Part shown: positions 14,315 through 56,010 of the stretch, one piece after another
Layout of the letters: every line of letters begins with the position of its first letter
How positions within the stretch are numbered: the stretch's first letter is position 1
Source: a virus
Direction: 5' to 3' (one strand)
UHGV virus genome: UHGV-0311442
Length of the DNA: 64,000 nt
Made by a program: the position numbers and the translations under genes
Notes under the pieces: generated by a model
Databases searched by the model: none
Told to the model about the DNA's origin: nothing
The model's input: only the letters and a program-made list of their open reading frames with translations

Positions 14315-14340
14315 AAAAAGAAAAAAAAATAAGAAAGTTA

Positions 14341-14378
14341 ACCTACCTCCGAAAGGAGGTAGGTGCTTTTATTTATTT
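14341..14378. terminator. Bidirectional hairpin terminator between convergent genes
   Basis: Stem acctacctcc/ggaggtaggt with loop gaaa. A T-rich run lies downstream (gcttttatttattt) and a long A-run lies upstream (14313-14330). Confidence 0.75.
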
Positions 14379-19184: not shown

Positions 19185-19224
19185 AAAAAATGAAAATACC
19201 CTACTCCTGTCTAGGAGTAGGGTA
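19185..19224 (-). terminator. Rho-independent terminator (minus strand), CCCTACTCC hairpin family
   Basis: Stem taccctactcct/aggagtagggta with loop gtct. The minus strand continues ttttcatttttt. Confidence 0.75.
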
Positions 19225-28255: not shown

Positions 28256-28290
28256 TTACCCCTAGACCACACGGTCTAGGGGTAAACTAT
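28256..28290. terminator. Bidirectional hairpin terminator between convergent genes
   Basis: 13-bp stem ttacccctagacc/ggtctaggggtaa with loop acac. An A-run lies upstream and a T-rich run downstream. Confidence 0.75.
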
Positions 28291-35500: not shown

Positions 35501-35542
35501 AAAAAGAAAGACCCTCCTGTACCACGAAAGGGTACAGGAGGG
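35501..35542 (-). terminator. Rho-independent terminator (minus strand)
   Basis: 12-bp stem ccctcctgtacc/ggtacaggaggg. The minus strand continues tctttcttttt. Confidence 0.75.
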
Positions 35543-37911: not shown

Positions 37912-38535
37912 ATGGCTACGCGTTTACCACTCCAGGTACCGGTCAACACCACGGGACTGTTCAAAGTAAAAACACCATTTACTTTGGCCGAGACGGTCAT
38001 TTATACGGTAGAAGCGTCACGTACCTTCCCAGATTTAGTACGTCAGAATATTGACGTTTATAACTCGTATTACCAGCCAGTAGGGCTAGGACGTGAAGAA
38101 TATTTAGCAGATGCGAATGTTAGTGCGTCGATTCTGACATTTAAATCTCGGGACGGTCAAGTTGTATATATACCTGACACCTACCTGGAATCATACCCAG
38201 GTTTATCCGGGATCACGTATCAACGAAATGTGTTAGTGGTAGATTTGGCACTGGTACCGGATTACGTGAAAGTGTCGTCTATAACAAAAGACGTTTCAGA
38301 TATTCTCACGCATACACTAGGGATTGAGCCGAAAGTTGAAATTACAACACTCGAGTATGAGGGGAAGGTAACGGAGGAACAACACTTGCAGATGGAAGCG
38401 GCACGAAAAAATAAAATTCGTGAATCTATTCCATTAGGTGAGAAAGTTGCTGCGTTGACAGAAGAGAACAAAAAATTAAAAGAGTTAAACAACCAAATGT
38501 TAGAGATTCTTAAAGCTAACGGGTTAGTTAATTAA
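37912..38535 (+). CDS. Hypothetical protein with a C-terminal coiled coil
   Basis: Track ORF of 207 aa with an ATG after GAGGAG. It ends at a bidirectional terminator. Confidence 0.6.
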   Translation: MATRLPLQVPVNTTGLFKVKTPFTLAETVIYTVEASRTFPDLVRQNIDVYNSYYQPVGLGREEYLADANVSASILTFKSRDGQVVYIPDTYLESYPGLSGITYQRNVLVVDLALVPDYVKVSSITKDVSDILTHTLGIEPKVEITTLEYEGKVTEEQHLQMEAARKNKIRESIPLGEKVAALTEENKKLKELNNQMLEILKANGLVN

Positions 38536-38577
38536 AAAAGATTACCCTACTCCTTCGGGAGTAGGGTAGCTTTTATT
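38534..38577. terminator. Bidirectional hairpin terminator, CCCTACTCC family
   Basis: Stem taccctactcc/ggagtagggta with loop ttcg. An A-run lies upstream and gcttttatttt downstream. Confidence 0.8.
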
Positions 38578-40723: not shown

Positions 40724-41233
40724 TTAGAAGAACGGCTGGTTTGGAATGACAGCGTACTCTAAAATGAACATGTGTTCTGGGGCGTCTTCTTTACGCCAGA
40801 CTTTGTGCGTCGTCACAAGTTTTTCCAGAATCGTTAAAAAACTACGCTGGCAGTATGTGTTTTCACCAAGCAGTAGATTTTGAAGTTCTACAGTAGCGTC
40901 CATATACGCCTGTTTAAAGACTAAACTACGATTATACTGTCCGGTAAAATTCCAAAGCAAGACTTTCCCTTCTTCGGTTTCTTTTACCGTTGGCCGTAAA
41001 CCACAAATCCACAACAAGGCAAGGTTGACGTTCCAGTCAAACTCTAAACCTTCTTCTTCGTCATCACCGAATGCTGTGGGTAAAGCATCGTAAAATTCGT
41101 GTTTCTCTGCGAATTCTTCATCTGACTTAATCTCGTCTTCGATGCTGCTTCGGACGATACTGTAAACGTCTTTCGCGGTCAATTGTGCGGCTTTTGTAAT
41201 GCCTTTATACCAATCGGTTACTACGATGCTCAA
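40724..41233 (-). CDS. Hypothetical protein
   Basis: Track ORF of 169 aa with a TTG start 7 nt after GAGGAG. It overlaps the stop of the SLT gene. Confidence 0.55.
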   Translation of the reverse strand: MSIVVTDWYKGITKAAQLTAKDVYSIVRSSIEDEIKSDEEFAEKHEFYDALPTAFGDDEEEGLEFDWNVNLALLWICGLRPTVKETEEGKVLLWNFTGQYNRSLVFKQAYMDATVELQNLLLGENTYCQRSFLTILEKLVTTHKVWRKEDAPEHMFILEYAVIPNQPFF

Positions 41234-41928
41234 AGGGTAACTCCTCTATTGATTGGAAAACTCGTGTTTATCGTATCCCAAATTTTACTAACTTCCGCCA
41301 ATTGAATCTGACGTGGTGTTTTCTTCGCAAACGCAAGCTGACGTGGGGCCGAGCCCACAACAACAGGCACATCGATTTTCGCGCTATAGAACGCGGCGTC
41401 TTTCATAAAGCCTGCCATTTCTCGTTGTGCTGCTCGAGATTTGCTTTTGATTCGCGTGTGAGCGCCACTTTCACCCCAGTGGTAAGCTAACGCAACTTCA
41501 GCCATGGTGGGCTTGCGTTTGAGTCGTTTGGTTAACCCCTTTTCAAGATGTTTAACATACGCGGCAGCCAGCAAAACAGCATTACGCGGATTATACAAAT
41601 CGGCGTTCTGACTAAGACCTAATTCTTTTCCATAAAGCCTTAGCAGATTACGCTTGGTACTTGGAAGCATCTGTACCAGGCTGTGTGCTCGTGAGCTTTT
41701 GTTGTAAGCCTTGGGATCAAAACGCGATTCACGATAAATCAGCGTAATCATCAGCTTAGGATCAACGCCTTGCTTTCGAGAGATTTCCACAATTAACGGG
41801 CTGACTTTTTCGAACCGATGTTGGATTTGTGTAAACTCACGCTGATGCTTAGATTGCGGCGTTGATGTTGACGCCTGTGCGTTAAACGCGAAAAGTGTTA
41901 CCAGTAAAAGAAAGAAGATACGAAACAT
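41230..41928 (-). CDS. Secreted lytic transglycosylase (SLT domain); candidate signal-peptide endolysin
   Basis: The track ORF starts at 41955. The ATG at 41928 after TGGAG gives MFRIFFLLLVTLFAFNAQA/ST, a Sec-type signal. SLT motifs: LIYRESRFDPKAYNKSSRAHSLVQMLPST, LYNPRNAVLLAAAYVKHL, ALAYHWGESG. Confidence 0.75.
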   Translation of the reverse strand: MFRIFFLLLVTLFAFNAQASTSTPQSKHQREFTQIQHRFEKVSPLIVEISRKQGVDPKLMITLIYRESRFDPKAYNKSSRAHSLVQMLPSTKRNLLRLYGKELGLSQNADLYNPRNAVLLAAAYVKHLEKGLTKRLKRKPTMAEVALAYHWGESGAHTRIKSKSRAAQREMAGFMKDAAFYSAKIDVPVVVGSAPRQLAFAKKTPRQIQLAEVSKIWDTINTSFPINRGVTL

Positions 41929-42010
41929 TTTGTTTCTCCAGTTGGATTTATACATTTCCGTATTCCGTAAGACGAAATGACGGCGCGGACAGCTAATACT
42001 CCTTTGTTGT

Positions 42011-42035
42011 GTGCCCTAATGATAATATCTATTTA
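42011..42035 (-). promoter_or_regulatory. Promoter-like motif, class B (minus orientation: TAAATAGATATTATCATTAGGGCAC)
   Basis: Same TAGATATTATC core as 32521-32545, again beginning with the TAG stop of the upstream gene. It lies upstream of the SLT gene. Confidence 0.4.
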
Positions 42036-42526
42036 AAAGAGTTTGGAATTAATGACTCTGCTTCTCGGTACAGCTTATCGGGTAAGTATAACGTGTAGTG
42101 TTGTCTCCTCGGTTCAAGTTTTTTGTAAAGCCACAAAAAGATTTCTTGTCTTTCCCAGGAATCTAACCACCCATTTGCCATCCCCAGTGGAGGGATAGCA
42201 ACGCTGGTATCCAGTTCCTCAACACAATCTGCTAATGCGGTAATGCCCGCAGTAACATAAGAAACCTGGGACTTTAAACGCCAATGTGTTTTCGTTGGGA
42301 GCAAGATGCACTTTTCATCAGGGTAAACGTAAACGCTTCCAATCTTAATTTCGTCTTCGCGACACCGCTTACGGTAATCTTGATAAAGGTTGGGGTAGCG
42401 TTCACGGCACGCCAGTGCAATACCGCGACCCATCGCTCCTACGCAGTTAATGGTAACGACTTTATAGTCTTCGGGCGCATTAAAAAGATCGTTACCAATT
42501 TCAGATTCTTTACGTACCGTTAACAT
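42029..42526 (-). CDS. Macrodomain protein, DarG/TARG1-like class (ADP-ribose hydrolase-like)
   Basis: The track ORF starts at a TTG at 42589. The ATG at 42526 (MLTVRKE...) is preferred but uncertain. VVTINCVGAMGRGIALACRERYPNLYQDYRKRC...LLPTKTHWRLKS...VAIPPLGMANGWLDSW matches by eye the DarG-type pattern NTVGVMGKGIALQFK..FP..Y..Y...C...NFPTKxHWRxxS...SxAxPxLGCGxGGLxW. Confidence 0.7.
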   Translation of the reverse strand: MLTVRKESEIGNDLFNAPEDYKVVTINCVGAMGRGIALACRERYPNLYQDYRKRCREDEIKIGSVYVYPDEKCILLPTKTHWRLKSQVSYVTAGITALADCVEELDTSVAIPPLGMANGWLDSWERQEIFLWLYKKLEPRRQHYTLYLPDKLYREAESLIPNSFK

Positions 42527-42613
42527 AACGAAACGCCCGGAGTTGATGTGTAGTATTAAAACGTGTACCGCCGATTGATAACTCGACAAGTATAGCGATA
42601 TATGTTTTACCCA

Positions 42614-42982
42614 TTAGCGATTTTTCGTAATCCATTGTTTGACCGCCGCTTCTAAACCTTCGTGTTGTAAGCCCAGGCGTTGCATAGTCAGCGCCAAGTT
42701 GAGCGTGTGCACAACCTGTTCACGGAACTGATGATCGTTCATGCGGTCCCAGACCTTCTCTACCGAAATATTGTGTTTCCAGAGCAAATAAGCTTCGCGA
42801 CACGATGCGCGACGAACCAAGCTGGGTTTAACAAAAGGCAACTCGATTTCAGGCAAGTAACCTAAAAGCTTAACTAGCGGCGTTACCTGCGTCTTACCGA
42901 AGTCACCGCACTGATAACAAATTTGTAGAATATCAATTTCATTCAACGGTATACCGTAAATTGATGGGTTCTCTGTGAACAT
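42614..42982 (-). CDS. Hypothetical protein
   Basis: Track ORF of 122 aa with an ATG 8 nt after GAGGAG. Its start lies inside the 3' end of the upstream ORF (44-nt overlap). Confidence 0.5.
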   Translation of the reverse strand: MFTENPSIYGIPLNEIDILQICYQCGDFGKTQVTPLVKLLGYLPEIELPFVKPSLVRRASCREAYLLWKHNISVEKVWDRMNDHQFREQVVHTLNLALTMQRLGLQHEGLEAAVKQWITKNR

Positions 42983-43184
42983 TCATATTCTCCTCAGGCT
43001 CGAAATGTGTTTCGGGTGGCAACGTCCCTAAAGCCCCTTGGATACAAGCTGTCAGCGTAGGTTTGCCGAAACAGACCTTACCTATTGTCCCCACATTGGG
43101 ATGCTGTAAGAACGCTTTTGCACGTTCGTATTCCTTCCAACAAATACTCGTATCCAAACCACCCACTCCGTACGATTTTAACAT
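42939..43184 (-). CDS. Hypothetical small protein
   Basis: Track ORF of 81 aa. The ATG lies 4 nt after the long inverted repeat 43189-43241, whose arm contains the only SD-like sequence (AAGAGAG). Confidence 0.45.
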   Translation of the reverse strand: MLKSYGVGGLDTSICWKEYERAKAFLQHPNVGTIGKVCFGKPTLTACIQGALGTLPPETHFEPEENMNVHREPINLRYTVE

Positions 43185-43188
43185 AATT

Positions 43189-43241
43189 AGCTCTCTTGAC
43201 GTAAATTTCTCACACTCATAGTGAGGTACGTCAAGAGAGCT
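43189..43241. repeat. Perfect 15-bp inverted repeat (agctctcttgacgta / tacgtcaagagagct) with a 23-nt spacer containing an inner ctcac/gtgag stem
   Basis: Read directly from the sequence. It lies between the GNAT stop (43251) and the ATG at 43184. The T-run is on the plus-strand side only. Confidence 0.8.
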
Positions 43242-43250
43242 TGATTGTTT

Positions 43251-43694
43251 TTAGAATGTTTTGCTAAAATCGACCCACTCACGATCGTGCGAGTAAACCG
43301 CCTGATAGCCGCGTCGGATGAAATACTCTTTTGCTTCTTTACATTTCGCATACATGCCAGTAACAATCTCGCCGAAAACTTCATCAGCTGCAATTGCTTT
43401 GAAAATCTCTTTCATTACACCCCGTTGACGGTAGTCTGGGAGCACGTATACTGAACGTATCTTAAGTGAACCGTTACGATTCCGATAACTACAGTATCCT
43501 ACCGCGACGTCATCCTGATACACCAGAACTATGCAGTTACCTTCGATCAGTTGCCGAGCTTTTAATTTCGGTACCGACGTTTTGATTTTCAGTAACGTGG
43601 CCTGGTGGTCTAAGTAACGGTAGTGCAGTTTGAGTAAATCGGCAGCTTGTCGCTCACCGACTTTAGAAGATGCGTTCAACAAATAAATTTCCAT
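43251..43694 (-). CDS. GNAT-family N-acetyltransferase
   Basis: The track ORF starts at a TTG at 43700. The ATG at 43694 lies 8 nt after TAAGGT. Acetyl-CoA motif A-like: IRSVYVLPDYRQRGVMKEIFKAI. The beta-strand pattern VAVGYCSYR precedes it. Confidence 0.6.
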   Translation of the reverse strand: MEIYLLNASSKVGERQAADLLKLHYRYLDHQATLLKIKTSVPKLKARQLIEGNCIVLVYQDDVAVGYCSYRNRNGSLKIRSVYVLPDYRQRGVMKEIFKAIAADEVFGEIVTGMYAKCKEAKEYFIRRGYQAVYSHDREWVDFSKTF

Positions 43695-43725
43695 TTGCAA
43701 ACCTTAGAGACGCAAAAAAGTAAAA

Positions 43726-44020: not shown

Positions 44021-44200
44021 CTAATTCCGCCATTCGCATTCGCGTTGACGCCAAATTGAACCCCACGATAGTTTAATCAGATAAGATGAAACTACCCATA
44101 AAATCATCACCACACAAAACATGACATAAAGAACCGCTAGAATGGACATGAAGCCAAACCCTGCCGCATCCACAATACGACGGAACCAATCAGTTTGCAT
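44021..44200 (-). CDS. Small membrane protein (59 aa from the ATG)
   Basis: Track ORF 44021..44206 (TTG); an ATG lies at 44200. The hydrophobic core is AAGFGFMSILAVLYVMFCVVMILWVVSSYL. Its start overlaps the stop of the Rad50-like gene. Confidence 0.45.
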   Translation of the reverse strand: MQTDWFRRIVDAAGFGFMSILAVLYVMFCVVMILWVVSSYLIKLSWGSIWRQRECEWRN

Positions 44201-46694
44201 AAACAATTTTTACTCCTTCGTTATACACCGCAGGCAATGTCACCCCTTCCGGTTCGATGACACAGTACGATGCTTCATTAAGTTTAGAATGAACCTCGGC
44301 TTCGTGGGAGACTACCAACAGTTGTGAAAATTCTCCTGAGTTTGCTAACGTTTTAATAAAGCCGACCAGGTTGTTACGGTGCTCCTCATCCATGCCCTCC
44401 GAAGGTTCATCCAAAAGCAACGGAAACTGATGCAACTTCAGCGCTTTGTACGCAGTCAGTCTGAACATCAGATTAAATATCGCACGCTGCGCCTTTGACC
44501 CTTTACGCACGTCAGGAACAGGCTCAGGATGCGTTTTTAGCTGGACAGGAAAAGTATAATCCAAATCGCCGTCAGTGAGATCACAAGGCATAACACGCAT
44601 GGGGTACGTCCAGACCTGTTCGATATAACGCGTCATTAACTCTGTGATTCTAACGATAGCGTTGTAAAAATACTTTCTAAGTACACCCTTTTCTGGCGAG
44701 AAGGCTTGAATCATCAGTTTGTTATTGAACTGCTGGGCTTGTAAGTCAGCAAGTTCGCGTTCCAAACTGTTGAGCTGGTTCAATTCATTTTCCATCTGAC
44801 GATAACGTTCGCGTGCGGTTGTAAAAGCATCCAGCTTCCCTTCTCGTGTACGTAAGAGTTCCTCGACGACCGTATTTGTCAACGTAACCTTAACGTCACT
44901 CTCTAACCGTTCGAATAACGCACTGAAATCATCTACAGCACGTTTAACATTCACTAGATAGGTAAGTGTCGTGTTAGCCAGTTCGTGCTCTCTACGACGC
45001 ATTGAGAGCATCTCTGTGGCTTTACCTAATCGCGACTGTTGGAAGGCGATCTTTTGTTGTAAAGCACCATCGACGTTACCAACGGCCGCTACGGCATCCT
45101 GCCATTCTTTTTCCGCCTTCACTAACCGTTGTCTGGTTTCATGGTACTCAATAGCAGAGTACAACTCACCGTCAAACGCTGCGCATAGACTCCCGAACTG
45201 CTCGCGAGACTCTGTGAAAACGTTACGTTCTTGCAAACGCTTAAAGAACATACTCAAAACAGGGTCCTTTGAATACGTCAGTACAATCTCACGAACCTGC
45301 CGCATATAAGTTACATCAGATTCTAATTCAACACGATCGCGTAATAAGGTCTCTAACTGCGTTTGCAGTTCCGTGCGCTGCTGTTGCTGTCCACGAATCG
45401 AAGACTCAAGTTCAGGCAAAGAACGCGTAACGCCTGGTCGAAACTTAAACCGACACTGCGGACAATCCACTTCCGCTGTTTCTAAGTAGTGGTTACGTTC
45501 GTGATTTAAATTCTGTAAAACGTTCTCCACTCGCTGGAGTCTATCCCGCAACCCGGCGGTTTTTTGATCCATCACCAGAAGCCGTTCTTCCAAAACATTG
45601 AGTTTTTCGGTCGAATGAATTGCGTCCAGCGTTGTTCCTAACCGTTGTCCCCAAACACGCGCGTCGGTAGCCGCACGAAGTTGGTCTAAATTGACGTTAT
45701 CGTTAAATAGACCCGGAAAGAGATGTTCAGTGTCCCATTTGGTAAGTAACTCACGTAAACGTGCCAGCGTATTCTTGAGACCTTCGTGATTCCGCATCAG
45801 GTAGTCCTGTCGTGTCGACTCATCCATCAATAACGACAAGTCTTTATTCAACATCGATACCTCTGTTTCAGTAGACACGACAGCTTCGCGGGCGGTCGCC
45901 TCGTTTTGTCGTGCGACCTGTATCTGTTCATCAGTAGGCAGACCACCACGATGTTGTAATATTGCGTCGATGGTTGGACCCAAGCTGTTTAATGACGCTT
46001 GGATTGTTTCGATGGTGACGCCGCGATTTAATCCTGGCAACTGTTCGATTTCTCGGTTCAGTTCACGTAAATCCGATTCCAAACCTTTTAATCTCGTCGC
46101 TAACTGCTGCCGTTCTTCCTCGTTCTCAATAACACGCGTCCGTAATTCGGCGATCTTACGGCTGGTGATTTCAATACCCCCATTTAAGGCAGTAAGGTTT
46201 TTACGTAAACGTTGATAAAACCCTAACGCGTAAGTGAGGTCAGAGGTGCTTAAACGGTAAAACCACTTGCGACGTAATTCGGTTCCCGCATCGGTTAACA
46301 AGACCTCACCATTTAATAGTTCTTTAATTTCTTTCGTAATACCCGTGATTTCTTCAACACGGGAGTTGTAGACTTTCGCATTACCTTGCTCGACGATCTT
46401 TGCCCCCGTGGTCAGGTTCTCAATATCACAAACCAAAGAGTTGCCTTTACGGGCAACTTTGAATCGATAGCGTTGATCGCCGACTAAACAGTAATTCGTG
46501 TAAGAACCGCCGTCCCTGAATTCAGTTTTAGCTGGTGCTAAGGGTAAGAACACAGACAGTAGACTGGTTTTCCCGCAGCCGTTCCCACCCAGGATAATTG
46601 TTGTTGGAGACTGGATAGTGAAATCGAAGGTTTCAATTTCATGTAACCCCATCCCCGTAAAACCTTTGAGTATAATGCGTTCAACTTTTAGCAT
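44190..46694 (-). CDS. Rad50/SbcC-like (T4 gp46-like) SMC-type ATPase
   Basis: The track ORF extends to 46769. The ATG at 46694 (MLKVERIILKGF...) lies after GGAGGTGGGT. Walker A is GGNGCGKTSLL (nt ~46565-46595). A long heptad-rich middle contains a CPQC hook-like motif (nt ~45453-45464). C-terminal FPLLLDEPSEGMD (Walker B) and LLVVSHE follow. Confidence 0.7.
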   Translation of the reverse strand: MLKVERIILKGFTGMGLHEIETFDFTIQSPTTIILGGNGCGKTSLLSVFLPLAPAKTEFRDGGSYTNYCLVGDQRYRFKVARKGNSLVCDIENLTTGAKIVEQGNAKVYNSRVEEITGITKEIKELLNGEVLLTDAGTELRRKWFYRLSTSDLTYALGFYQRLRKNLTALNGGIEITSRKIAELRTRVIENEEERQQLATRLKGLESDLRELNREIEQLPGLNRGVTIETIQASLNSLGPTIDAILQHRGGLPTDEQIQVARQNEATAREAVVSTETEVSMLNKDLSLLMDESTRQDYLMRNHEGLKNTLARLRELLTKWDTEHLFPGLFNDNVNLDQLRAATDARVWGQRLGTTLDAIHSTEKLNVLEERLLVMDQKTAGLRDRLQRVENVLQNLNHERNHYLETAEVDCPQCRFKFRPGVTRSLPELESSIRGQQQQRTELQTQLETLLRDRVELESDVTYMRQVREIVLTYSKDPVLSMFFKRLQERNVFTESREQFGSLCAAFDGELYSAIEYHETRQRLVKAEKEWQDAVAAVGNVDGALQQKIAFQQSRLGKATEMLSMRRREHELANTTLTYLVNVKRAVDDFSALFERLESDVKVTLTNTVVEELLRTREGKLDAFTTARERYRQMENELNQLNSLERELADLQAQQFNNKLMIQAFSPEKGVLRKYFYNAIVRITELMTRYIEQVWTYPMRVMPCDLTDGDLDYTFPVQLKTHPEPVPDVRKGSKAQRAIFNLMFRLTAYKALKLHQFPLLLDEPSEGMDEEHRNNLVGFIKTLANSGEFSQLLVVSHEAEVHSKLNEASYCVIEPEGVTLPAVYNEGVKIVYAN

Positions 46695-46772
46695 ACCCAC
46701 CTCCATAAAGACGGAGTGTGGTGTAAAAAGAAAAAAATAAAGAAAGGGAGAACCCGAAGGTTCTCCCAAACG

Positions 46773-47381
46773 TTATTTGGTGTACAGGTGATAACCCATT
46801 GAAGTCCAATAATCGACGTTCTTCGTGTTTTCTACCCAAACCTGTCCCGCCTTTGTGGCTAAGACTTCCATTGTCAATGTACAGATCAGATTTGTTACCG
46901 GGATACAATTTCCAGGTGTAACATCATCCAGATAAACCGGATATAAAAACGGCGATTTAATGGATTGGTACGGGTAAGAATAGTGGCTACCGACCTTCCA
47001 CCCTTCTTCTACAGGACAGAGATTAAAAGTGCGTGTTTCAGGAACTGCGTTTTCAGAGATCCAGTTAACAACATCGGCTTTAATTCGATCGTGGTCGATA
47101 TAGTAGAACACAACACGTTGTGGGATACTTGTGGTACCAGCCGGGTCTAAAGCCTCCAACGCCTTAAAAGGCGACGTTAACAATGTTGTACTGTTCTCAA
47201 GCGCGTAAACCAACTTTTCGTAAGCAGTCGGTGTTTTACGTTTAAAATATTCCCGTAAGCGAGGGTATGCCAGGAAGCCCTCTACTTCTTCTTCCATTAA
47301 GTCAATGAATAAAGGCGTATGCGAAAAGCGTTCTGCATTTTGCATCGCTTCAAGAAAACGAACTAATGTAATTTCGTTCAT
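46773..47381 (-). CDS. Hypothetical protein
   Basis: Track ORF of 202 aa with an ATG after AAAGGAAAG. No phosphoesterase (Mre11/SbcD) motifs are seen. Confidence 0.6.
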   Translation of the reverse strand: MNEITLVRFLEAMQNAERFSHTPLFIDLMEEEVEGFLAYPRLREYFKRKTPTAYEKLVYALENSTTLLTSPFKALEALDPAGTTSIPQRVVFYYIDHDRIKADVVNWISENAVPETRTFNLCPVEEGWKVGSHYSYPYQSIKSPFLYPVYLDDVTPGNCIPVTNLICTLTMEVLATKAGQVWVENTKNVDYWTSMGYHLYTK

Positions 47382-55953: not shown

Positions 55954-56010
55954 AAAAAAAAACGTGCTACTCCTACCCTCTAAGAGGGTAGGAGGTTACT
56001 TTATTTTTTT
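55954..56010. terminator. Bidirectional hairpin terminator
   Basis: 11-bp stem ctcctaccctc/gagggtaggag with loop taa. An A9 run lies upstream and tttattttttt downstream. Confidence 0.8.

What the first reader, a model, noticed from the sequence alone, without database searches (positions are those of the whole stretch)
42029..42526. DarG/TARG1-class macrodomain in a phage: candidate eraser of DNA or protein ADP-ribosylation
The sequence ...VVTINCVGAMGRGIALACRERYPNLYQDYRKRCREDEIKIGSVYVY...ILLPTKTHWRLKSQVSYVTAGITALA...SVAIPPLGMANGWLDSW follows, block by block, the DarG-antitoxin-type macrodomain. The blocks are N.VG.MG.GIAL, FP..Y..Y...C, FPTK.HWR..S and A.P.LG.G.GGL.W, and the Lys of the PTK motif is included.

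Established knowledge: DarG macrodomains remove ADP-ribose from thymidine in ssDNA written by DarT, and DarTG defends bacteria against phages.

A free-standing phage copy is an obvious counter-defence candidate. It lies in an accessory-looking stretch with a GNAT gene, two overlapping small ORFs and a long regulatory hairpin.
Basis: partly seen in the sequence, partly recalled or inferred. Interest (0 to 1): 0.65.

Follow-up and report, generated by a model that had tools for sequence, protein, structure and literature searches.

The report
Jumbo-phage AdfM anti-DarT macrodomain gene

Summary
The ORF is real: minus strand, 42029-42526, 165 aa, and gene callers call it identically on public contigs. 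It is a single-domain macrodomain of the DarG2 class. The NCBIfam and PADLOC DarG models match at E about 1e-36, over their macro half only. The best PDB matches are the M. tuberculosis and T. aquaticus DarG macrodomains. An AF2 model (pLDDT 93.8) superposes on Taq DarG bound to ADP-ribose (TM 0.79/0.85). The catalytic Asn27 and Lys79 and most ADP-ribose contacts are conserved.

The window comes from an unnamed jumbo phage of about 225 kb, close to Seoulvirus (family Chimalliviridae). The protein is 62% identical to, syntenic with, and clusters at 100% bootstrap with Asesino gp217. Asesino gp217 is a named member of AdfM (anti-DarT factor macro; Morgan et al., Cell Rep 2026). In that study PhiKZ AdfM removed DarT2-installed ADP-ribose from ssDNA, and PhiKZ and PhiPA3 needed AdfM to grow on DarTG2 hosts.

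Corrections:
- The gene is on the minus strand.
- The "GGL" motif reads GWL here, a clade-wide change.
- The gene backbone around it is conserved across genera, not accessory.
- The hairpin is real and conserved but lies about 660 nt upstream, in front of another gene.

Activity of this subclade is inferred, not shown.

The parts
42029..42526 (-). AdfM-like gene: a 165-aa single-domain DarG2-type macrodomain. Catalytic N27 and K79. Loop 1 is VGAMGRGIA (residues 29-37). Loop 2 is PPLGMANGWL (residues 112-121).
   Evidence: ORF and translation. Pfam, NCBIfam, PADLOC, PHROG and PDB matches. AF2 model pLDDT 93.8, with Foldseek top hit 5m3e. Residue mapping. 62% identical and syntenic to Asesino gp217, with 100% bootstrap.
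42510..42614 (-). Context only: a 34-aa ORF whose ATG overlaps the p122 stop (TAATG) and whose stop lies 17 nt inside the macro gene. It may be a translational-coupling bridge or a spurious call.
   Evidence: Called on three of four identical-protein contigs. Sequence and junctions shown. No homologue among the small genes of relatives.
42614..42982 (-). Context: p122, a conserved phage protein of unknown function (phrog_11720), directly upstream on the same strand.
   Evidence: PHROG E 8.7e-31. Homologues in the Seoulvirus and Asesino loci in the same order. No Pfam or PADLOC hit.
42939..43184 (-). Context: p81, a conserved small phage protein (phrog_28329) that overlaps p122 by 44 nt in another frame.
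   Evidence: PHROG E 2.2e-16. Homologues in L001 and L002, where they are separate genes.
43189..43241 (-). Context: a conserved nested stem-loop between the GNAT stop and the p81 ATG. It is not adjacent to the macro gene.
   Evidence: 15-bp perfect arms. dG -31.2 kcal/mol, z -8.1. Equivalent structures at the same intergenic position in Seoulvirus MET_P1 and Asesino, with different stem sequences. No Rfam match.
43251..43700 (-). Context: a GNAT acetyltransferase (phrog_3810), two genes upstream of the macro gene.
   Evidence: Pfam Acetyltransf_1, _7 and _10. PHROG E 9e-26. Orthologues in Seoulvirus and Asesino.
41230..41955 (-). Context: an SLT-domain lytic transglycosylase (annotated as endolysin in Asesino), directly downstream on the same strand.
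   Evidence: Pfam SLT E 1.1e-14. PHROG 4067. Orthologous to Asesino gp218, 'putative endolysin'.

Best explanation
The gene encodes an orphan DarG2-like ADP-ribosyl glycohydrolase of the AdfM family (anti-DarT factor macro) in a chimallivirus close to Seoulvirus.

Proposed mechanism:
1. When the phage infects a host carrying a DarTG2 toxin-antitoxin defence, DarT2 uses NAD+ to attach ADP-ribose to thymidines in TNTC motifs of single-stranded phage DNA.
2. This macrodomain binds the ADP-ribose moiety through its two glycine-rich loops.
3. Using Lys79, with Asn27 positioning the substrate, it cleaves the ribose-thymine bond and restores unmodified DNA, so replication and packaging can proceed.
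4. It lacks the DarT-binding C-terminal domain of cellular DarG2, so it acts only enzymatically, as an eraser, and not as a stoichiometric toxin inhibitor.
5. By analogy with its Asesino orthologue, it is probably imported into the phage nucleus, where the DNA substrate is.

Shown here: the ORF, the DarG2-type fold and sequence class, conservation of the catalytic residues, absence of the second domain and of a darT neighbour, chimallivirus origin, and orthology and synteny with Asesino gp217.

Taken from the literature on homologues: hydrolysis of thymidine-linked ADP-ribose, rescue from DarT2, protection of the phage, and nuclear localisation.

Inferred for this protein: all biochemical and cell-biological activity.
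For: - DarG2 class: NCBIfam antitoxin_DarG E 3e-36 over profile positions 7-155 of 338. PADLOC DarG E 3.4e-37 over positions 7-151 of 329.
- PDB by sequence: 5m3i at 3.9e-26 and 5m31 at 4.2e-21. A phage-only profile gives 1.9e-46 and 2.6e-42, against TARG1 at 9.4e-8.
- Fold: AF2 pLDDT 93.8, pTM 0.90. Foldseek top hit 5m3e, Taq DarG with ADP-ribose, E 1.8e-13, TM 0.79/0.85, rmsd 2.0 A.
- Residues: N27 and K79 align with Taq N22/K80 and PhiKZ N23/K78 and are invariant in 9 and in 24 sequences. The ADP-ribose contacts T20, T79, G117, N120 and G121 of Taq DarG (PMC5179494) are retained as T25, T78, G115, N118 and G119.
- Orthology: 61.6% identity to Asesino gp217. The flanking genes are colinear. 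NJ clade bootstrap is 100%.
- Lineage: RNAP beta is 85.8% identical to Seoulvirus. Seoulvirus and Erskinevirus belong to Chimalliviridae.
- Published function of the family: PMC13309987.
- DarTG2 is active against coliphages in E. coli (PMC11825919), so enterobacterial phages plausibly meet it.
- No ART, sirtuin or NADAR gene among 43 large ORFs of the window that could point to another substrate.
Against: - No experiment exists for this protein or its subclade. For Asesino gp217 the paper reports only nuclear localisation; enzymology and genetics were done on PhiKZ and PhiPA3 AdfM, which are about 32% identical over the full alignment and 36-37% over the locally aligned core.
- The subclade has Trp in place of the second Gly of the NGGL ligand-grasping loop (W120) and Ala in place of Taq G119, and G119E impairs Taq DarG. 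This is tempered by PhiKZ AdfM also having Ala there, PhiPA3 AdfM having Lys at the W position, and TARG1 having Arg.
- The tree does not resolve the window clade and the PhiKZ clade as one phage lineage (support 14-58%), and their genomic positions differ (against 36). Transfer of function therefore rests on class membership rather than orthology with the assayed proteins.
- DarG-type macrodomains also occur in other, uncharacterised domain architectures, so the class may not have a single substrate.
Confidence: 0.8

Rival explanations
1. It is an active ADP-ribosyl hydrolase whose main substrate is not DarT2-modified thymidine. Candidates are ADP-ribosylated RNA or protein made by other host ART-based defences, or small molecules such as O-acetyl-ADP-ribose or ADP-ribose-1''-phosphate, as the GenBank labels 'Appr-1-p processing' and 'phosphatase' imply.
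For: - GenBank and PHROG annotations of homologues read 'Appr-1-p processing protein' or 'phosphatase'.
- The related TARG1 acts on proteins (PMC5179494).
- The loop changes W120 and A117 could shift specificity.
- DarG-type macrodomains occur with several other partner domains.
Against: - Those labels are legacy homology transfers from the generic Macro family.
- Poa1p-like phosphatases match only at E 0.019 and MacroD/YmdB types are not recovered, whereas DarG matches at 1e-26 to 1e-46.
- The assayed family members act on DarT2-modified DNA and the phage phenotype is DarTG2-specific (PMC13309987).
- W82, proposed to stack on the thymine, is retained.
Confidence: 0.12
2. It is a catalytically dead ADP-ribose binder or sponge. 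The bulky Trp in the ligand-grasping loop blocks turnover, and the protein sequesters an ADP-ribose-derived molecule or shields modified DNA.
For: - W120 replaces a Gly in the loop that moves up to 7.7 A to clasp ADP-ribose in Taq DarG (PMC5179494).
- A117 replaces G119, whose G119E mutant is impaired.
Against: - The catalytic K79 and N27 are invariant in all 24 clade members despite divergence down to 33% identity, which argues for selection on catalysis.
- Active PhiKZ AdfM also has Ala at the G119 position, functional PhiPA3 AdfM has Lys at the Trp position, and active TARG1 has Arg there.
Confidence: 0.04
3. It reverses or tunes ADP-ribosylation made by a phage-encoded ADP-ribosyltransferase (a writer/eraser pair of the phage itself) rather than countering a host defence.
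For: - ARTs are reported in over 40% of jumbo phages and macro domains in 56% (PMC9503650).
- A Streptomyces phage homologue lies under a feature annotated as ADP-ribosyltransferase (H27).
Against: - No ART domain was found among the neighbours or among 43 large ORFs of the 64-kb window.
- The rest of the roughly 225-kb genome was not examined.
- The AdfM phenotype in PhiKZ and PhiPA3 depends on host DarTG2.
Confidence: 0.04

Closest known systems
AdfM (anti-DarT factor macro) of chimalliviruses: PhiKZ gp104, PhiPA3 gp108, Goslar gp83, Asesino gp217 (Morgan et al., Cell Rep 2026, PMC13309987)
   Same: - A single-domain protein of about 160 aa with a DarG2-type macrodomain, encoded by a Chimalliviridae phage.
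- The same catalytic Asn and Lys.
- 62% identity, the same flanking genes and 100% bootstrap with Asesino gp217.
   Different: - Only about 32% identical over the full alignment (36-37% over the aligned core) to the members that were assayed (PhiKZ, PhiPA3), and at a different genomic position from them.
- The subclade carries W120 in the NGGL loop and a C-terminal tail ending ...IPNSFK.
- Activity, specificity and nuclear import are untested for this protein.
DarG2 antitoxin of DarTG2 toxin-antitoxin systems (T. aquaticus, M. tuberculosis; PDB 5m31, 5m3e, 5m3i; NCBIfam NF048014)
   Same: - The macrodomain class, the fold (TM 0.79/0.85, rmsd 2.0 A) and the catalytic Lys and Asn with most ADP-ribose contacts.
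- The isolated DarG macrodomain is sufficient as an antitoxin (PMC5179494).
   Different: - No C-terminal DarT-binding domain. The match covers profile positions 7-155 of 338 and scores 125 bits against a cut-off of 250.
- No adjacent darT gene.
- Encoded by a phage, so it works against the defence rather than as its safety catch.
TARG1 / OARD1 (human terminal ADP-ribose glycohydrolase; PDB 4j5q, 4j5r, 4j5s)
   Same: The next-closest macrodomain class, with an equivalent catalytic Lys and the same ligand pocket geometry.
   Different: - Much weaker similarity (E 9.4e-8; 19% identity).
- The TARG1 Asp125 position is Gly119 here, as in DarG.
- TARG1 is a eukaryotic enzyme that acts mainly on proteins.
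AdfN (NADAR-domain orphan antitoxin of T4-like phages; PMC11825919), and AdfA and AdfB
   Same: The same strategy for AdfN: a phage carries an orphan copy of the antitoxin's eraser domain to undo DarT-made DNA ADP-ribosylation.
   Different: - AdfN has an unrelated fold (NADAR) and is specific for guanine modified by DarT1. It does not counter DarTG2.
- AdfA and AdfB are direct DarT inhibitors, not enzymes.

Membership tests
AdfM (chimallivirus anti-DarT factor macro) | Stand-alone protein consisting of one DarG2-type macrodomain | tested here: met
   165 aa. The DarG models match only over their macro half. The fold matches 5m3e, 5m3i and 5m31 first. The profile ranking puts DarG far ahead of TARG1.
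AdfM (chimallivirus anti-DarT factor macro) | Catalytic Asn and Lys (PhiKZ N23 and K78; Taq DarG N22 and K80) | tested here: met
   N27 and K79 align with them and are invariant. The numbering offset was validated letter by letter.
AdfM (chimallivirus anti-DarT factor macro) | Encoded by a nucleus-forming (Chimalliviridae) phage | tested here: met
   The split RNAP beta subunit is 85.8% identical to Seoulvirus. Seoulvirus and Erskinevirus are in Chimalliviridae. The locus is colinear with both. Chimallin and PicA themselves were not located in the 64-kb window.
AdfM (chimallivirus anti-DarT factor macro) | Orthology with a named member | tested here: met
   61.6% identity to Asesino gp217 with the same neighbours. 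100% bootstrap. The relation to the PhiKZ/PhiPA3 clade is unresolved (14-58%).
AdfM (chimallivirus anti-DarT factor macro) | Removes DarT2-installed ADP-ribose from thymidine in ssDNA and protects the phage from DarTG2 | not testable with these tools
   Shown for PhiKZ (enzyme, toxicity rescue, phage genetics) and for PhiPA3 (phage genetics) only.
AdfM (chimallivirus anti-DarT factor macro) | Imported into the phage nucleus (PicA pathway) | not testable with these tools
   Shown for the Asesino, PhiKZ and PhiPA3 proteins. Import is reported to be largely specific to the cognate phage.
DarG2 antitoxin (NF048014, type II TA) | Macrodomain plus a C-terminal DarT-binding domain; score at or above the curated cut-off | tested here: not met
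   125.4 bits against a cut-off of 250. Only profile positions 7-155 of 338 are matched, and the protein ends at residue 165.
DarG2 antitoxin (NF048014, type II TA) | Adjacent darT toxin gene | tested here: not met
   The neighbours are p122 and p81 (unknown function), a GNAT and an SLT transglycosylase. There is no DarT or ART hit in Pfam, PHROG or PADLOC.
TARG1/OARD1 | Catalytic Lys84 together with Asp125 | tested here: not met
   The Lys equivalent is present (K79), but the Asp125 position is Gly119 (alignment). Similarity is only E 9.4e-8.
MacroD/YmdB or Poa1p 'Appr-1-p processing' enzymes (the label used in GenBank records) | Best match to MacroD/YmdB-type or Poa1p-type macrodomains | tested here: not met
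   Poa1p-like 6lft matches at E 0.019 by single sequence. No MacroD/YmdB chain appears among the listed hits. No NCBIfam hit other than DarG.

The most novel reading that the evidence does not exclude
The Seoulvirus/Erskinevirus/window subclade of AdfM carries Trp in place of the second Gly of the ligand-clasping NGGL loop, Ala in place of Taq G119, and its own C-terminal tail. It may have a substrate range different from PhiKZ AdfM, for example other DarT variants or sequence contexts, or ADP-ribosylated RNA. It may also work as part of a conserved cassette (GNAT, structured RNA element, p81, p122, AdfM) whose other members are undescribed counter-defence or nuclear-targeting factors.
Probability: 0.1. 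Interest if true: 0.5.

Novelty: new member of a known kind. Interest (0 to 1): 0.2.

Why it matters
This finding mainly confirms what is known. It adds a Salmonella/Enterobacteriaceae-associated jumbo phage to the AdfM family. It also shows that the Asesino/Seoulvirus-type AdfM sits in a gene backbone shared by three chimallivirus lineages.

It would matter in practice for predicting whether such jumbo phages, which are candidates for therapy or biocontrol, can grow on DarTG2-bearing strains.

The one open scientific point is that enzymology has only been done on the distant PhiKZ-type proteins. The W120 subclade, to which this protein belongs, has not been assayed.

Tried and rejected
1. Near-identity DNA search of the locus against the phage collection found nothing. 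The phage is not a deposited isolate, and protein-level searches were needed.
2. Rfam scan of 38-47 kb found only one chance-level hit, so there is no known RNA family at the hairpin.
3. The sigma-70 promoter scan gave no enrichment: 6 sites against 5.5 expected. These phages use their own RNA polymerases, so the scan is uninformative.
4. The idea that the hairpin regulates the macro gene was rejected. It lies in front of p81, and the macro gene's own flanks fold no better than shuffles (z +0.94 and -0.25).
5. The idea that this is an accessory island was mostly rejected. Seven flanking genes are colinear in two other genera, although relatives carry two extra small genes between p81 and macro that the window lacks.
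6. GNAT-macro functional linkage was tested and found weak. A GNAT lies near the macro gene in the window clade and in Kodama and Centimanus, but these are two GNAT groups with no detectable similarity to each other (BLASTP, and only the window group hits phrog_3810). Eowyn, LucasX (HNH endonuclease instead), Special G and the PhiKZ clade have none.
7. A search for a phage-encoded ART, sirtuin or NADAR among 43 large ORFs found none.
8. The first profile-versus-PDB search was discounted as circular because alignment A1 contained the DarG fragments. It was repeated with the phage-only alignment A2.
9. The tree test of whether all chimallivirus AdfMs are one clade was inconclusive: deep nodes have 14-58% support from 50 NJ bootstraps.
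10. p81 and p122 as a single frameshifted gene was rejected. They are separate, non-adjacent genes in Seoulvirus.

Full report
**Observation.** The stated coordinates hold a real gene, on the minus strand. The mechanical ORF extends to a TTG at 42589. However, homologues are 161-166 aa, and four public contigs that encode the identical protein have it called at 165 aa, so ATG 42526 is the start.

**What it is.**
- Pfam recognises a Macro domain above its gathering threshold (E 4e-6).
- More specific models are far stronger. NCBIfam antitoxin_DarG gives E 3e-36 and PADLOC DarG gives E 3.4e-37, each matching only the N-terminal, macrodomain half of the model (positions 7-155 of 338 and 7-151 of 329).
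- Against solved structures, the single sequence finds the M. tuberculosis and T. aquaticus DarG macrodomains (3.9e-26 and 4.2e-21) and the T. africanus DarTG fusion. It finds nothing of TARG1 or MacroD type.
- A profile built only from phage-clade homologues (A2, so not circular) gives DarG at 1.9e-46 and 2.6e-42, the DarTG fusion at 2.7e-28, TARG1 at 9.4e-8, and Poa1p-like and viral macrodomains weaker still.
- An AlphaFold2 model from that alignment is confident (pLDDT 93.8, pTM 0.90). Its best Foldseek match is Taq DarG with ADP-ribose bound (5m3e; E 1.8e-13; TM 0.79/0.85; rmsd 2.0 A), ahead of TARG1 at 1.6e-7.

**Active site.** Jankevicius et al. 2016 (PMC5179494) list the Taq DarG residues that hydrogen-bond to ADP-ribose: N8, L9, T20, N22, V31, Q34, T79, G117, G119, N120 and G121. 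They name K80 as the catalytic residue, with K80A inactive and N22A next worst. I mapped these by alignment and validated the numbering letter by letter.
- Retained: T25, N27, T78, K79, H81, W82, G115, N118 and G119.
- Different: R34 for K29, A39 for Q34, A117 for G119, and W120 for G122.
- At the K29, Q34 and G119 positions the PhiKZ-type AdfM proteins, which are active, also differ from Taq DarG (A, S or A, and A respectively).
- W120 is shared by the whole Seoulvirus/Erskinevirus/window clade. At that position PhiPA3 AdfM has Lys and TARG1 has Arg. A bulky residue there is therefore compatible with activity.
- N27 and K79 are invariant in all 24 clade members, down to 33% identity.

**Genome and neighbourhood.**
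- The locus has no near-identical record among deposited phages.
- The protein is 66% identical to Seoulvirus proteins and 61.6% identical to Erwinia phage Asesino gp217.
- A split RNA polymerase beta subunit in the window is 85.8% identical to Seoulvirus.
- Both genera are classified in Chimalliviridae.
- The exact protein lies on metagenome scaffolds of about 225 kb and on a 153-kb contig of an NCBI assembly. The region is 97-99% identical at the DNA level.
- Variants 90% identical sit on contigs of up to 226 kb labelled Salmonella enterica.
- Gene order is SbcC-like ATPase, p32, GNAT, p81, p122, macro, SLT transglycosylase, p169, all on the minus strand. All of these have homologues in the same order in Seoulvirus MET_P1 and in Asesino.
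- The relatives carry two additional small genes between p81 and macro that the window lacks.
- The backbone is therefore conserved, with small variable inserts. It is not an accessory island.
- No DarT, ART, sirtuin or NADAR gene is nearby or among 43 large ORFs of the window.

**Comparison with the literature.** Morgan et al. (Cell Rep 2026, PMC13309987) describe exactly this class as AdfM, anti-DarT factor macro.
- DarG2-like macrodomain proteins occur in about half of chimalliviruses.
- PhiKZ gp104 removes ADP-ribose from a DarT2-modified TNTC oligonucleotide, and N23A reduces that activity.
- PhiKZ gp104 rescues DarT2 toxicity in E. coli.
- AdfM-deficient PhiKZ loses three to six logs of titre on DarTG2-expressing hosts, and AdfM-mutant PhiPA3 also drops in titre.
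- GFP fusions of the PhiKZ, PhiPA3 and Asesino (gp217) proteins localise to the phage nucleus.
- The window protein groups with Asesino gp217 and the Seoulvirus proteins at 100% bootstrap. It shares their flanking genes. It is therefore an orthologue of a named AdfM.
- DarTG2 is active against coliphages in E. coli (PMC11825919), so an enterobacterial jumbo phage plausibly faces it.

**Mechanism (most likely, confidence about 0.8).** DarT2 ADP-ribosylates thymidines in phage ssDNA. This enzyme binds the ADP-ribose and, through K79 and N27, cleaves it off, restoring replication and packaging. It has no DarT-binding domain, so it acts only as an eraser. Its Asesino orthologue suggests it acts inside the phage nucleus. 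The sequence, fold, residue and orthology steps are shown here. The chemistry, the phenotype and the localisation are taken from homologues and are inferred for this protein.

**Caveats.**
- The assayed proteins (PhiKZ, PhiPA3) are only about 32% identical to this one over the full alignment and 36-37% over the aligned core. They also lie in a different genomic context.
- The distance tree does not resolve the two phage clades as sisters within the DarG2-type radiation (14-58% support).
- The exhaustive representative search shows DarG-type macrodomains in several architectures. These include DarG-like proteins of about 350 aa that cover nearly the whole DarG profile (P0055, P0072). They also include proteins with the macro domain at the C-terminus behind an unknown N-terminal region.
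- Class membership is therefore strong, but substrate identity for the W120 subclade is still an inference.

**Rivals.**
- Another ADP-ribose substrate (0.12).
- A non-catalytic binder (0.04).
- An eraser for a phage-encoded ART (0.04).
- Each is weakened by the conserved catalytic residues, by the DarG-specific similarity, and by the absence of an ART in the window.

**The hairpin.** The 'long regulatory hairpin' is real: 43189-43241, 15-bp perfect stem, dG -31.2 kcal/mol, z -8.1. A structure of the same shape lies at the same intergenic position in Seoulvirus and Asesino, with different stem sequences and an inner GC hairpin followed by a U-run. It ends 4-5 nt before the p81 start codon, about 660 nt upstream of the macro gene. 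No link to the macro gene is shown beyond a possible shared transcription unit.

**Verdict.** This is a new member of a known kind, and interest is low (0.2). The residual novelty is the untested W120 subclade and the conserved neighbouring genes of unknown function.

Noticed in passing
window 43189-43241 (minus-strand transcript); L001:3553-3612; L002:3247-3309: A long nested stem-loop between the GNAT stop and the p81 ATG is conserved in position and shape in three chimallivirus lineages. The outer stem sequences differ but still pair. There is an inner GC hairpin followed by a U-run, and the outer stem ends 'AGCUA(A/U)UUAUG', 4-5 nt before the start codon. It has no Rfam family. It could be a terminator nested in a start-proximal regulatory structure.
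   Followed up: partly
window 43251-43700; L003:2523-3014 (Kodama); L014:1035-1499 (Centimanus): A GNAT acetyltransferase lies just upstream of the DarG-type macro gene in two separate jumbo-phage lineages, overlapping it in Kodama. The two GNAT groups show no detectable similarity to each other, and other lineages lack the pairing. The association is weak and may be coincidental.
   Followed up: partly
window 42510-42614 (minus): A 34-aa ORF starts on the p122 stop codon (TAATG) and ends 17 nt inside the macro gene. Gene callers call it on three of four identical-protein contigs. It has no homologue in relatives. It may be a translational-coupling bridge or a spurious call.
   Followed up: partly
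one search hits H24, H27-H29, H34-H39; L015:1938-2378: DarG-type macrodomain genes are not confined to chimalliviruses. They occur in Kuravirus/phiEco32-like coliphages (in phage Paul, between the spanins and a phage sigma factor), in Thermus phage phiMa, in Vibrio phage VAP7 and in Streptomyces phages (one under a feature annotated as ADP-ribosyltransferase). AdfM-like counter-defence may extend beyond nucleus-forming phages.
   Followed up: no
against 36; tree: The macro gene sits after the gp101/gp102-type virion genes in PhiKZ, PhiPA3 and 201phi2-1, but between the SbcC-like and SLT genes in the Seoulvirus/Erskinevirus/window clade. The tree does not join the two clades. This is compatible with independent acquisitions from bacterial DarG2 or with rearrangement.
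   Followed up: partly
P0050, P0056, P0061, P0065: Unannotated proteins of about 335-355 aa carry the DarG-type macrodomain at the C-terminus behind an N-terminal region of about 150 aa that matched no NCBIfam model at the threshold used. This architecture differs from canonical DarG2, which has the macro domain at the N-terminus.
   Followed up: no
P0008, P0009; L010, NCBI GCA_013957665.1: Contigs of 79 to 226 kb from this jumbo-phage lineage appear inside assemblies labelled Salmonella enterica and in another NCBI isolate assembly. This suggests carrier-state or pseudolysogenic phage DNA, or contamination, in isolate sequencing.
   Followed up: no
window 14327-14378, 19197-19224, 28256-28285, 35512-35542, 38534-38577, 46735-46778, 55970-55994: Tight-loop (1-7 nt) inverted repeats of 12-24 nt; those whose neighbouring ORFs I compared (e.g. 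14327-14378, 38534-38577, 46735-46778) lie between or at the ends of large ORFs. Several share a TACCCTACTCC/GGAGTAGGGTA-like core. They are likely phage terminators and differ from the nested hairpin at 43189-43241.
   Followed up: no
window 44190-46769 (minus): The SbcC/SMC-like ORF listed at 859 aa from a TTG start is called at 820-834 aa on the near-identical public contigs, so the true start is probably downstream of 46769.
   Followed up: no
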